Shown here: positions 53,164 through 63,272 of the stretch, piece after piece
Layout: each line of letters starts with the position of its first letter
How positions within the stretch are numbered: position 1 is the stretch's first letter
Assembly (NCBI RefSeq): GCF_009914755.1
Contig: NC_060944.1
Length of the DNA: 64,000 nt
Reading direction: 5' to 3' (one strand)
Source: the human T2T-CHM13v2.0 reference genome, Homo sapiens
Notes under the pieces: model-generated
What the model was told of the DNA's origin: nothing
Databases searched by the model: none
The model's input: the letters and a program-made list of their open reading frames with translations, nothing else
Position numbers and translations under genes: made by a program

Positions 53164-55864
53164 CTCCTTGAAAACAGTAACATTTTATAGACATGAAAGA
53201 TGCTTTACTAACCAGCATGATCTATCTAAATCCTCATAACAACCCTATGAGGAAGGTACTGTTGTTAATCCCTGTTGTACAGATAAGGAAACTGAGGTAC
53301 AGAAAAGAGCACCTACCTTAAGGCATCTAGCTAGGTAGAGGCAAGTCCAGGGTACCCGGGTAGTCTTACTTCATAGTTGGAGCTCCTAACCACTGTGCCA
53401 TACTGCCTGCCTGCTATATGCCAGATGCAGAACCAAAGTGTTTTCAGACAAGTTATCACATTTAATTCTCAACATGCCTTCTGAGGTTGGCAGCATGCCT
53501 GTATTATAGGAAAGGAAACTCAACCTAGGGAGGTCAAGCTGCCTGCCGAAAGCCAGACAACCAGTAAGGAGCAGGGCCAGAACTGAAACCAGCTGAACAC
53601 TCAGAGGTAGTTTTCCATTTTGTTTTCAGATTTGAAAACTTTTTAAAGTTGAAGTATAGTCCACATGTTGAATAATACATACATCTTATGAGCCTTTGGT
53701 TATAGTTATCATTTACAAAGTAGACTCAGTACGACCACTGAAGTTTGCTTCTCAGGGACATAAGGGAACAAAATTGTCTGATTTGAACATCCCCATCCCT
53801 AGAGTTTGATTCAGTCTCCTGTGGGACTTTAGATTCTGCATTTCTAACCAGATCCCAGGTGATGCTGATGCTGTACTTTGTGATCCCCTGGTCTAAAATG
53901 ATCTCCCTTCCTTGAAAAATTTTCCCCAGCTGAGACATTCTCTTCCTCTCTTGTGGGCATTGGTTTGCAGATTTTTGAGCTTAAGTTGTACTTTTTCCCT
54001 GCCATTCAAGATATTGAGAGCAAATCACTTAATCTTCCTGGGCCTCAGTTTCCTCATATGCCTAATGAGTGGATTAAGTACGCGACTCTCTCTGAGGCCC
54101 CTTCTAGCTTTAAAATTCTGTGGTACTAATTATTTAGACCGGGGCTCCAGAGATTTCAAGGGATAAAAACGCTTCATGTGGTAGACTGAGTGGGGCTGAG
54201 AATCTGGGAGATTTGGGTTTTAATCCCACTTTTATCATTACTTATCTGGGTGACTCAGGACAAGTCACTTTCCCTTTCTATACATCATTTTTTTTCAATC
54301 GCTTGTAAAATGAGGAGACTGAGCGATATGACTTCTGGTTCTTTTCATTTCCAAAATTCAGAGACTAAGATGGATGCCGTTTCTAAAATTCAGAGACTAA
54401 GCCAGGAAAAATATCATGCAGTGTCAAGAAATGTTTATTAAAAGTATTTAACATTTTTTGGGTGCTTACTACATTTCATTTTTGGGGCGACTTGGTGGGA
54501 AGATTCCAATTTTCTGCTGAGATTGGTTCTTCTACAAGTAATAGAGATAGGCACTAAGCGCCTCAGTATATGCCGTATATCCTTGACATATGTTAACTAT
54601 TCATTTGAGAAGACAGGAGAATTACAATATGGGCAGGAGGTGGTGGAAAAAGTCTTCAAGAGGGAACCAGTTATGTTCCCAATATGGAAATGTACTTTTT
54701 TGATGCCTTCAGGCTTAGACATCTCATCAAGAAGTGTGCCCAGCAGTGCCTTGGCTGAGAAGTTTCTGCTGGCATAGGCGCATATATGAACTCCAGGGCA
54801 CTCTCATTAAATCTGATTCCACAGATGTCTGGAAAAAGTTCTTACCTCTGAAGTTTTCCAATAAAGAATTCACATTTAGTATGGCTTGTGACATGAGATG
54901 TATTCTTTTTGAGGCAAATTTGAGGCTAAGGGACCCTTGGTTTTGGTGATATTGCAGACACCCACTCCTCTTGTCCTCTATCAGTAATATCTTAGCATAT
55001 CTCTTGGATTGCAGGAGCTTACAGAAATATCTAAACTTGCTCCTTTCCCCCTCCTAGTTTTTTCTTTTGAAATAAAATTTTAAATGATAATAAAGTGATA
55101 GAAATAGTATTAAAGAAAATGCTTGAGAAGAGGAAAACTATTATCCTAATTCAATCAATATTTTTCTGTTCCCACAGTCCTTACGTATTTTGTGAGGCTA
55201 GAACCATTGCATATATACTACTTTATGTTCTATGTTTTTAATTTAACATTGCCAGGAATATTTTCTGTGTTTCTACATCTCCTTCATGTTATTTTTAATA
55301 TTTGCATACTTTTTGCTTGAGTGATAGACCATTTTCCCTAAATTGTTCTTCTACAATTGGATGTTTAGGTGGTTTTCCGGTTTTTGTTCTTGGAGATAAC
55401 ATTGTAGTGAAGTGCTTTGTTCATGTAGCATTTTTTTCCTTCCCATCTGTCATTAGTATTTACCATGTGCCATCTCCTGTGCCAAGTATTGCATGCACTA
55501 AAATTATTATGACATGGACCATGGACATTAAAGAAGAATTCATAATGTAAGGAGCAAGACAGACATTTAGAAAACTAACTCTATGAATAAAAGTATTATG
55601 GGAGCACAATGGAAGGAACGGTTGGATATGGAAAGGGGATATATCGATGGGGATGGATTTGGTTTGGTCATTGAAGAAAAGGGAGATGACACTGGAATCC
55701 TAGCCTTGATGAATGGGTAGGGATTCTGTGGGTGGTAAAGGACACTGGGGACAGTGATTCTTGACTGGCATTATTAAGAGCAAAAGCAGGGTAGTGAAAT
55801 GTTCAGAGCATAGGGTAAATGCAGCAATGGGTAAAAAGCAGGGAGTGGTCGGAGACGATGGGGG

Positions 55865-56064
55865 TCATCTCAGCTGCAGATGTGTGGCGTAATACATCGT
55901 ACGCTCATCTCAGCTGCAGATGTGTGGCGTAATACATCGTACGCTCATCTCAGCTGCAGATGTGTGGCGTAATACATCGTACGCTCATCTCAGCTGCAGA
56001 TGTGTGGCGTAATACATCGTACGCTCATCTCAGCTGCAGATGTGTGGCGTAATACATCGTACGC
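55865..56064. repeat. Perfect tandem array, 5 x 40 bp (TCATCTCAGCTGCAGATGTGTGGCGTAATACATCGTACGC)
   Basis: Five identical units starting at 55865, 55905, 55945, 55985 and 56025; read directly from the sequence. Confidence 0.98.
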
Positions 56065-56138
56065 ACGTGGAATGAATCATTGGTTGTTTTACAGTGCTAA
56101 CAGTATACTGTTTGTGTGTGTTCCAATTTTATTACAAC

Positions 56139-56271
56139 CTTTTTTTAAAAAATAGAATCAGGGCCTCCCTGTGTTGTCCAGGCTGGTCTTGAACTCTTGG
56201 ACTTGAGCTATCCTCCTGCCTCAGTCTCCTAAAGTGCTGGGATTACAAGCGTGAGCCACTGTGGCTGGCCC
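56139..56271 (-). mobile_element. Alu monomer (FLAM-like)
   Basis: Left-arm-only antisense Alu; TSD-like CCA(A/G)TTTTATTACAA. Confidence 0.82.
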
Positions 56272-57875
56272 CAGTTTTATTACAATCTTGATAGTACTAG
56301 TTCATAATTTATTTTTTCCACTAATCTACTAGGTATATTAAATACTAGTTCAAGGTTGCTTTATTAAGCATTATTTTCTTCTTGTGTGAGTTTATCATTT
56401 GTATTATTATGTGCCTCATAAGGTAGTCATTGTAATTTCGTAATTGAGTTTTTCTGTTATATGGGTTTTTTGGTTGTTGTTGTTGTGTGTATAAGAAACA
56501 TTACTGAAAATCTGAAAACTGGTGCTCAGATACATCCTTCATTCTGTGAAGGCCTCATCCCAGTAGCCCTAAGAATATGATTCTAATCATGAAGTCATTT
56601 TATATAGGCTCTTTTTGCATGTCAGTTTAGTACATTTTGAAGTTACTTTTTGTTGGAAGTGTGACTCTAACAGATAAGGAGGACCAGAACAGATACAGAG
56701 CTATTCTCATTGATAACATTTCAGACTGTTTTTCTCTTTCATCTCATGAGTGATTTTTTTCCTTAAGTTCACTTCCTCCCTCTGCGTTCTTCTCATCATC
56801 TCTTTCTTCTGGCCCATTCTTCTCACACTTACAAAACACATTCTATTTATATGCCTCCTTACACACACTTTTTACTAAACTGTAGACTTAGAGGCAAGGA
56901 CCAGCACCTAGCAGAGCATCTCAACTGTAGTTAATGTCTAATACATGGTTGTTTAATGATTGAATGAACTGGGACATGCCTTTGTATATGCCCTGGTTGT
57001 TTCCCCTTCTGGAAAGCTCTTGTTCTACTATCTTGTTAGCTTGTTGGCCTACATCTCTGTGCTTTCATGTCAGACTTCAAGAAAATTGGGTTCACAACTG
57101 ATACTTCAGTTGCTTAATCATTTTCCTCTTCTTTATTATCATATCTTGCCACTCTTGCTACAAAACCTATATTCTTTGCTTTTTAACTTTTTATTTTGAA
57201 TTTTAAACTTAGAAAAAATTATAAAAATAGTAGAGTTTCCGTATATTCCTCATCCAGCTTCCCCTAAAGCTAACATCTCATATAACCATTATGTAAAGAT
57301 CAAAACTAGGGAATTAACATTCGTGTAATACTAGTAACTAAACTGCACACTTAATTCACATGCCATCAGAGATGTCTGGTCATTTTTCTGTTCCAGGTTT
57401 CTATCCAGGATCCCACATAATGTTTGTCATATTTCCTTAGTCTTCCGTTATCTTTCATGTTGAAGAGTACTGGTCAGCTATTTTGTAGAATGTCCAAAAC
57501 CTACATTCTTGAACTTGTCAGTGCTGTCTTTTGCCAAAGATTTTCTTGGGCCTCATTATTCTGGAATCTTCACTAGAATTTGACTCTGTAACTCTCTTCT
57601 TCATCATTTTAGAAGAACTCATTCATTCTTTTCCTTTCAGCATCTTTTTGCAGACAGCTCTTAGTTCACCGTCCCTGATTAACGTTTCGTGTGTGTACTG
57701 AACATTCTGGCCAGATGTTCAGATATCACATAATTCTCTGCTTCCTCCCCTGCCTATCCCCATGGCCAGCTTTGCATTTCAGTCAGGGGTGTTGATGTTC
57801 AGCAGACTTGAAAGGAGCCTTGGAACTATTTCTCAAAGATGAAACGGCTCAAAGATGAAAGACAAGGTTCTTTAC

Positions 57876-62653: not shown

Positions 62654-62948
62654 TAGTTCAGAACTAGTTTCTTTTCCATAGAATTCCAGCAGTGACTGAT
62701 CTGAAAATGTTTTAGCCTAAACTTTAGAATTCCAGCTCCATTGTGGGTTGGTAAATGGAAATTAGCTTTTCTTCATCCTGGAGTTCAGTGAAGGATCTAG
62801 TGAGACTACTGCAGTGCCTTTCTATCTTTTAACTCACTTTGGATTATCAGCTGCTTGTAAGCAGATTATGTGCACTGGCTCTTTGTACTTCCTTTCAACA
62901 GCTACCCAGCAATATCTAGAGTCACTGAACTAAGAAGGAGTTGAAACT

Positions 62949-63272
<324 letters not shown>

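What the first reader, a model, noticed from the sequence alone, without database searches (positions are those of the whole stretch)
55865..56064. Perfect, CpG-rich 5 x 40-bp tandem array in CTNNBL1 intron 1 that looks non-native or extremely recent
Seen: exactly 200 bp made of five 100%-identical copies of TCATCTCAGCTGCAGATGTGTGGCGTAATACATCGTACGC. There is no partial unit at either edge, no target-site duplication and no related degenerate copy nearby. Unit composition is almost uniform (A9 C10 G10 T11) with 3 CpGs (obs/exp ~1.2), and none of the 15 CpGs shows TpG/CpA decay, although the surrounding intron is strongly CpG-depleted. Each unit carries PvuII (CAGCTG), PstI (CTGCAG) and BsiWI (CGTACG) sites. 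It matches no Alu/L1/LTR/satellite consensus I know. Known: human minisatellites usually show variant repeats, ragged ends and a unit resembling local sequence. Inference: the simplest explanation is an engineered or in-silico insert, or an assembly artefact. The alternative is a very young polymorphic VNTR seeded by foreign sequence. It is not a CRISPR array (no spacers) and is not coding (40-nt period, stops on both strands).
Basis: partly seen in the sequence, partly recalled or inferred. Interest (0 to 1): 0.9.

Follow-up and report, generated by a model that had tools for sequence, protein, structure and literature searches.

The report
Synthetic-looking perfect 5 x 40-bp array
A flawless five-copy, 40-base repeat in the first intron of the human gene CTNNBL1 has the make-up of designed or random DNA rather than human DNA, so it is most likely a planted or artificial stretch and not biology, although a very young natural repeat cannot be excluded without a second human assembly.

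Summary
Window 55865-56064 is exactly five identical 40-nt units, with no partial unit, no target-site duplication and no degenerate copy nearby. The held genome has the unit nowhere else.

The unit does not look human. It has 3 CpG (observed/expected 1.2, against 0.20-0.24 in the flanks). It lies at the 0.2-0.6th percentile of native 40-mers but the 23rd-36th percentile of uniform random 40-mers. Of 11 tandem-repeat rows with period >=20 and >=3 copies in 314 kb, it is the only perfect one; the next best is 94%.

There is no net length change. Chromosome 20 is 66,210,255 bases long, and a downstream Alu is in register with the hub's repeat mask. So the array is either native or written over exactly 200 bases.

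The held genome carries the array too, and I could reach no independent human or ape assembly. My one continuity test, through an old repeat family, failed.

Odds: same-length synthetic or in-silico replacement about 0.6, young native VNTR about 0.3, artefact or real foreign DNA in the public assembly about 0.07. Interest is low under each reading.

The parts
55865..56064 (.). Perfect tandem array: five identical 40-nt units starting at 55865, 55905, 55945, 55985 and 56025. Each unit has 3 CpG, one PvuII, one PstI and one BsiWI site, and two CANNTG words.
55825..55864 (.). Left junction flank. It is G-rich unique sequence with no microhomology to the unit end and no duplicated word of more than 4 nt shared with the right flank.
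   Evidence: Window 55560-55864 is unique in the held genome. GC skew is +0.44 to +0.57 over 55500-55899.
56065..56104 (.). Right junction flank. It is unique sequence with no microhomology to the unit start.
   Evidence: Window 56065-56152 is unique in the held genome.

Best explanation
The 200 bases are not native human sequence. A designed or random 40-mer, repeated five times, most likely stands in place of exactly 200 bases of CTNNBL1 intron 1 in the copy of the genome used for this scan. That would make it an in-silico plant, control or edit with no biological mechanism.

Shown: the array exists in the data, is unique, is compositionally non-human, and causes no coordinate shift.

Inferred: that it replaced native bases, and that it is absent from the public assembly and from real DNA.
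For: 1. Form. The array is exactly 5 x 40 = 200 bases at 100% identity.

2. No parent sequence. A whole-genome search with up to 3 mismatches gave 5 forward hits, all in the array, and 0 reverse hits. Both flanks are unique. The unit resembles the +-5 kb flanks no more than shuffled units do (22 of 100 shuffles reach its score).

3. Likelihood under human models. Markov models of order 3-5 were trained on 250 kb of the same genome held out from the window.
- They give the unit log2P of -85.6 to -89.1, against -80 for a uniform model. That is 5.6-9.1 bits per unit in favour of uniform.
- Only 0.23-0.56% of about 63,700 native 40-mers in the window score as low.
- The unit sits at the 23rd-36th percentile of 20,000 uniform random 40-mers.

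4. Simple features.
- No homopolymer run >=3, all bases at 9-11 and >=3 CpG together occur in 16 of 312,720 native 40-mers, against 693 of 100,000 random ones.
- Adding >=3 palindromic hexamers leaves 0 of 312,720 native and 33 of 100,000 random.
- I chose these features after looking at the unit.

5. CpG. Observed/expected is 1.2, against 0.20-0.24 in the flanks.

6. Native arrays differ. In 314 kb (window plus sample), 1 of 11 TRF rows with period >=20 and >=3 copies is perfect, and it is this one. The others have 64-94% matches.

7. No duplication signature. There is no target-site duplication and no junction microhomology.

8. Length is preserved, as a coordinate-keeping replacement would leave it.
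- Contig C20 is 66,210,255 bases long, which is the figure I recall for T2T-CHM13v2.0 chr20.
- The Alu at about 62949-63248 sits inside the hub's mask 62942-63257.

9. No natural or vector source.
- Plasmids and E. coli genomes gave no BLAST match.
- Phages gave one chance hit at E 0.3.
- The prokaryote and viral contig collections gave no exact 40-mer match.
Against: - The held whole genome carries the array at the same place, and its loci are identical to the window. Either the plant was made in the genome copy as well, or the array really is in the assembly.
- Nothing directly shows that 200 native bases are missing. The flanks belong to no repeat family that I could use as a ruler.
- No other such array turned up in the rest of the window or in 250 kb sampled elsewhere. 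Plants, if they exist, are sparse.
- Perfect identity alone fits a natural array up to roughly 1e5 generations old (recalled mutation rates).
- The unit is also unusual for a plain random generator: only 33 of 100,000 random 40-mers share all four features. That points to design or to chance, and the features were picked after looking.
- My prior that the scan contains planted sequences is a guess.
Confidence: 0.6

Rival explanations
1. A genuine, young minisatellite (VNTR) of the CHM13 haplotype or of humans generally. One 40-bp stretch of intron 1 was duplicated in tandem by slippage or unequal exchange and grew to five copies. It is too young, or too recently homogenised, to have picked up substitutions.
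For: - The held genome carries the array, and chromosome length equals the figure I recall for the public assembly.
- A clean tandem duplication gives an exact integer copy number by itself.
- At recalled mutation rates, 200 bases with 15 CpG can stay unchanged for about 1e5 generations.
- Human-specific VNTRs are common and mostly intronic: 61.5% of 467 in PMC8327921 (passages seen).
- About 0.2-0.6% of native 40-mers are as improbable as the unit. A genome-wide scan that flags the oddest sites could turn up one real case.
Against: - The founding single unit would itself have to be native, yet it has 3 CpG with balanced bases and no runs. That occurs in 16 of 312,720 native 40-mers, in an intron with CpG observed/expected of 0.2.
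- There is no microhomology at either edge and no degenerate copy.
- The 10 other arrays of comparable period in 314 kb have 64-94% matches.
- The VNTRs studied in PMC8327921 are described as variable in internal sequence (passages only).
- It lacks the G-rich strand bias of classical minisatellites, with G = C = 10.
Confidence: 0.3
2. The array is real content of the public assembly but not of the genome. It would be an assembly or polishing artefact, or a concatemer of a laboratory oligo built into the consensus.
For: The unit looks designed: balanced bases, no homopolymer runs and three restriction sites. It is absent from the rest of the genome.
Against: - It matches no vector-bearing collection that I could search: plasmids, E. 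coli, phages.
- A 200-base foreign concatemer would need the support of many reads to survive in a read-consensus assembly. This is general knowledge and was not tested here.
- The flanks join it cleanly, with no other disturbance.
Confidence: 0.05
3. Real foreign or untemplated DNA was inserted in the germline or in the cell line and then amplified to five copies.
For: The composition is non-human and the CpG are undecayed. No parent sequence exists in the genome.
Against: - No donor was found in any collection searched.
- There is no target-site duplication or other integration mark.
- It requires two rare events in a row.
Confidence: 0.02

Closest known systems
Synthetic spike-in or planted control sequence (a random or designed oligo repeated in tandem)
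   Same: - Round design numbers: 40 x 5 = 200.
- Perfect identity.
- Near-uniform base use, no homopolymer runs, and a random-level CpG count.
- No relative anywhere.
- Coordinates downstream are kept.
   Different: No record of such a plant is available to me. The held genome copy carries the array as well.
Human-specific or young intronic VNTRs (for example those of Course et al. 2021, PMC8327921; listing, start of abstract and passages seen)
   Same: - Head-to-tail array with a period of tens of bases.
- Intronic position.
- Unique, non-retrotransposon flanks.
   Different: - There is no variation between units, whereas those VNTRs are described as variable.
- The array is only 200 bp long.
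- The unit's composition is non-human.
- It is not subtelomeric.
- Its presence in other genomes was not tested.
Classical G-rich minisatellites (recalled from Jeffreys-type loci)
   Same: Tandem units of 10-100 bp.
   Different: - No G/C strand asymmetry (G 10, C 10).
- No variant repeats.
- From reading the unit, I see no core-like motif of the kind I recall for those loci.
CpG-rich VNTR inside a retrotransposon, as found 16 kb downstream in the same intron (locus L030 8220-8747; SVA-like by my recall)
   Same: A CpG-rich tandem array in CTNNBL1 intron 1.
   Different: That native array has 74-94% matches, with indels up to 14% in most rows and several nested periods. The array under study is perfect, and no copy of its unit within 3 mismatches lies elsewhere in the genome.

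Membership tests
Human minisatellite / VNTR | Head-to-tail copies of a unit of about 10-100 bp | tested here: met
   TRF finds period 40 and 5.0 copies. Spacing is 40, 40, 40, 40.
Human minisatellite / VNTR | Present at the same locus in independent human genomes, usually with variable copy number | not testable with these tools
   Only one human genome copy is held, and it is identical to the window. Searches for human contaminant contigs covering the locus found none.
Human minisatellite / VNTR | Unit derived from local or genomic sequence (a parent copy or degenerate copies exist) | tested here: not met
   All 5 genome-wide hits within 3 mismatches lie in the array. The flanks resemble the unit no more than shuffled units do (22 of 100 shuffles reach its score).
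Human minisatellite / VNTR | Variation between units (typical of the family, not strictly defining) | tested here: not met
   The array has 100% matches. The 10 other TRF rows with period >=20 and >=3 copies in 314 kb have 64-94%.
Retrotransposon-derived array (Alu, L1, SVA, LTR) | Similarity of the unit or its flanks to interspersed copies elsewhere in the genome | tested here: not met
   The unit is unique and so are the flanks. Sensitive blastn and nhmmer against 312 kb found nothing for 55550-56125. A profile of an old repeat family found nothing in 55001-57000.
Transposon or insertion event | Target-site duplication or terminal repeats at the edges | tested here: not met
   The longest word shared by the 40-nt flanks is 4 nt.
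CpG island | At least 200 bp, GC above 0.5, CpG observed/expected above 0.6 (criteria recalled) | tested here: inconclusive
   The array is 200 bp, GC is exactly 0.50 and observed/expected is 1.2. These numbers come from one 40-mer repeated five times, not from an extended island. The true island is at 47.8-48.4 kb.
Protein-coding or RNA gene | An open frame, or a match to a known RNA family | tested here: not met
   Stops occur in all six frames. Rfam gives no hit on the array at E <= 1; its only hit is the neighbouring Alu monomer.
In-silico plant / same-length replacement | Composition typical of random or designed sequence and atypical of the host | tested here: met
   The unit lies at the 23rd-36th percentile of random 40-mers and the 0.2-0.6th percentile of native 40-mers. 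Three simple features together occur in 16 of 312,720 native 40-mers, against 693 of 100,000 random.
In-silico plant / same-length replacement | Coordinates downstream unchanged relative to the public annotation | tested here: met
   The Alu at about 62949-63248 lies within the hub's mask 62942-63257. C20 is 66,210,255 bases long (the public figure is recalled). This result is equally expected if the array is native.
In-silico plant / same-length replacement | Absent from the public record, its reads and other assemblies | not testable with these tools
   No independent copy of the locus could be reached.

The most novel reading that the evidence does not exclude
The array is real human DNA. 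A stretch of foreign or untemplated sequence entered CTNNBL1 intron 1 recently and was amplified to five copies. This created, 7.7 kb downstream of the promoter, a 200-bp block with ten CANNTG (E-box-like) words and 15 undecayed CpG. Such a block could bind bHLH factors or escape methylation, and would act as a new, possibly polymorphic, regulatory element.
Probability: 0.05. Interest if true: 0.5.

Novelty: not a real feature. Interest (0 to 1): 0.1.

Why it matters
If the array is a plant or an edit, it carries no biology. Its value is as a check that the scan and its readers recognise non-native sequence without inventing a function for it.

If it turns out to be in the public CHM13 record and its reads, it becomes a small but odd case. 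It would be a perfect, CpG-rich, composition-foreign VNTR in an intron of a widely expressed splicing-associated gene. It would then be worth genotyping in pangenome haplotypes and checking for methylation and copy-number variation.

In both cases one look at the public record settles the matter.

Tried and rejected
1. Continuity test through an old repeat.
- I thought, from recall, that the G-rich left flank looked like the 3' part of an ancient LINE2-type repeat. Such a repeat would show whether 200 bases are missing.
- A recalled 17-nt motif of that family does mark an interspersed repeat: 68 forward and 69 reverse hits, against 0 for the control.
- I fetched 20 of the 137 copies, 801 b each, and built an iterated nhmmer profile (32 hits, 425 positions).
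- The profile found nothing in window 55001-57000, even at E <= 100.
- Smith-Waterman scores of both flanks against the profile's consensus were no better than shuffles: left flank z = -0.07, with 111 of 200 shuffles as good.
- A first profile from a raw MAFFT alignment hit only the Alu monomer.
- The recalled likeness is not supported and the test is unavailable.

2. Paralogues of the flanks. There were none in the genome and none in a 312-kb sample by blastn with word size 7 or by nhmmer.

3. A native copy of the locus in contaminant contigs. An exact 30-mer from 1.2 kb upstream gave 0 hits in both the prokaryote and the viral collections.

4. Source of the unit.
- Plasmids: none.
- Phages: one chance hit at E 0.3.
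- E. coli genomes: none.
- Exact 40-mer in prokaryote and viral contigs: none.
- These scans would miss diverged sources. nt and UniVec were not available.

5. Papers.
- 'CTNNBL1' with 'VNTR' gave 2 papers, neither about such a repeat to judge by title and start of abstract.
- An 18-nt part of the unit is in no held paper.
- Supplements were not consulted.

6. Soft-masking case in the files. All letters are upper case, so this gave no information.

7. DNA folding. The array folds better than shuffles (z = -5.0). I read this (from the unit's palindromic sites; not tested) as pairing of palindrome-bearing units, not as evidence of function.

8. Other plants. No other perfect non-Alu repeat, direct or inverted, of 25 nt or more was found in the window apart from simple runs.

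Full report
**What is there.** Window 55865-56064 consists of five head-to-tail copies of one 40-nt unit.
- The copies are identical: TRF gives period 40, 5.0 copies, 100% matches, no indels and score 400 (sequence read; register confirmed).
- A search for the unit with up to 3 mismatches finds these five places and no other in the window. None of 100 shuffles gives any hit.
- The neighbouring bases do not extend the repeat on either side.
- The unit is A9 C10 G10 T11 with 3 CpG. The array has CpG observed/expected of 1.2 at GC 0.50, while 2-kb and 5-kb flanks on both sides have 0.20-0.24.
- Each unit has one PvuII, one PstI and one BsiWI site and two CANNTG words. All six frames contain stops.
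- By the hub's gene table, the array lies in intron 1 of CTNNBL1, about 7.7 kb downstream of exon 1.

**How unusual it is.**
- Its 160-nt self-match is the longest exact repeat in the window. The next is a 54-nt match between Alus.
- It is one of only two places in the window with 15 or more CpG per 200 bp. The other is the promoter island.
- For a background I took 250 kb of the same genome: twenty 10-kb pieces on chromosomes 1-20 and 50 kb further down the same intron.
- In these 250 kb plus the window, TRF lists 11 rows with period >=20 and >=3 copies. This array is the only perfect one; the others have 64-94% matches.
- A native CpG-rich array 16 kb downstream in the same intron (L030 8220-8747) has 74-94% matches and indels in most of its rows.

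**Whether the unit looks human.** Markov models of order 3-5 were trained only on the 250-kb sample.
- They give the unit log2P of -85.6 to -89.1, against -80 under a uniform model.
- Native 40-mers of the window average about -76 to -77. Only 0.23-0.56% of them score as low as the unit.
- Among 20,000 uniform random 40-mers, the unit sits at the 23rd-36th percentile.
- Three simple properties together (no homopolymer of 3 or more, every base 9-11 times, at least 3 CpG) occur in 16 of 312,720 native 40-mers and in 693 of 100,000 random ones.
- Adding three palindromic hexamers leaves 0 of 312,720 native and 33 of 100,000 random.
- I chose these properties after seeing the unit, so they count for less than the model scores.
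- They suggest a designed rather than purely random 40-mer.

**Where it could come from.**
- The held genome contains the unit five times, all in this array, and never on the other strand.
- The flanks 55560-55864 and 56065-56152 are single-copy.
- The unit resembles nothing in +-5 kb beyond what shuffled units do. There is no target-site duplication and no microhomology at the edges.
- Plasmids, E. coli genomes and phages give nothing beyond one chance hit at E 0.3.
- The exact 40-mer is absent from the prokaryote and viral contig collections.
- Rfam sees only the neighbouring Alu monomer.
- No held paper prints an 18-nt part of the unit. Only two papers hold both 'CTNNBL1' and 'VNTR', and by title and start of abstract neither is about such a repeat.

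**Insert, replacement or native.**
- The held genome has 3,117,275,501 bases in 24 contigs, and C20 has 66,210,255. These are the figures I recall for T2T-CHM13v2.0 without the mitochondrion.
It places a masked stretch at 62942-63257. In the window, the Alu with its poly-A runs from about 62949 to 63248. An upstream Alu fits its mask equally well.
- So the sequence downstream of the array is in register with the public coordinates, and there is no net insertion of 200 bases.
- The array is therefore either native to the assembly or written over exactly 200 bases.
- The held genome is identical to the window here. It gives no independent view.

**The test that failed.**
- I tried to use an old interspersed repeat as a ruler across the site, because the left flank reminded me of one.
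- The recalled 17-nt motif does mark a repeat family: 137 hits against 0 for the control.
- A profile iterated from 20 fetched copies plus the sample (32 hits) finds nothing in 55001-57000.
- The flanks align to its consensus no better than shuffles.
- Sensitive searches of the flanks against the sample also found nothing.
- Searches for contaminant contigs carrying the locus were empty.
- Hence nothing here shows directly that native bases are missing.

**Weighing.**
- Against a natural origin stand the non-human unit, the lack of any parent copy, the lack of duplication signatures, and the contrast with native arrays.
  - A clean tandem duplication always yields an integer number of copies.
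  - At recalled human mutation rates, 200 bases with 15 CpG would wait roughly 1e5 generations for their first substitution. Perfection therefore does not require extreme youth.
- For a natural origin stand the presence of the array in the held genome and the fact that a genome-wide scan picks out rare sites.
- The round design (40 x 5 = 200), the designed look of the unit and the coordinate-preserving form fit a planted control or edit best.
- My odds are about 0.6 for a plant or edit, 0.3 for a young native VNTR, and 0.07 for an artefact or real foreign DNA in the public assembly. The prior that the scan contains plants is my own guess.

**Comparison with known kinds.**
- As a VNTR, it meets the tandem-unit criterion. 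It fails on derivation from genomic sequence and on internal variation. Its presence in other genomes could not be tested.
- Human-specific VNTRs are mostly intronic and internally variable (PMC8327921: listing, start of abstract and passages).
- It is not retrotransposon-derived, not an insertion with a target-site duplication, not coding and not a known RNA.
- Numerically it is borderline on my recalled CpG-island thresholds (200 bp; GC exactly 0.50, where I recall above 0.5; observed/expected 1.2), and only because one 40-mer is repeated.

**Verdict.** Most likely this is not a real biological feature, and interest is low. One comparison with the public record or its reads would settle it.

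Noticed in passing
window 56141-56281: An isolated Alu-monomer-like fragment on the minus strand, preceded by a T-run, lies 77 bases downstream of the array. It gives a weak Rfam hit to metazoan SRP RNA (20.7 bits, E 0.005, below the gathering score) and many blastn hits to Alus. It is intact, so the array does not cut it.
   Followed up: partly
L030 8220-8747 (G000:C20:39442220-39442747, same intron, 16 kb downstream): A native CpG-rich tandem array with nested periods of 37, 49-50 and 176. It has 74-94% matches and up to 14% indels. By my recall it looks like the VNTR part of an SVA-type element. I used it only as a contrast to the perfect array.
   Followed up: no
L023 5896-9592 (G000:C14:40005896-40009592): A large, old tandem array with period 75 (also 151 and 226), about 49 copies and 70% matches. 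It turned up in the random background sample.
   Followed up: no
window 55500-55899: A strongly G-over-C skewed stretch (GC skew +0.44 to +0.57) leads up to the array. The right flank also reads G-rich by eye. The array, with zero skew, sits inside this domain. I could not assign the domain to any repeat family.
   Followed up: partly
G000, genome-wide: The recalled 17-nt motif occurs 68 times forward and 69 times reverse, against 0 for the backwards control. It therefore marks an old interspersed repeat family. Copies are alignable over about 300-450 bases around the motif. The family is unrelated to the finding.
   Followed up: partly
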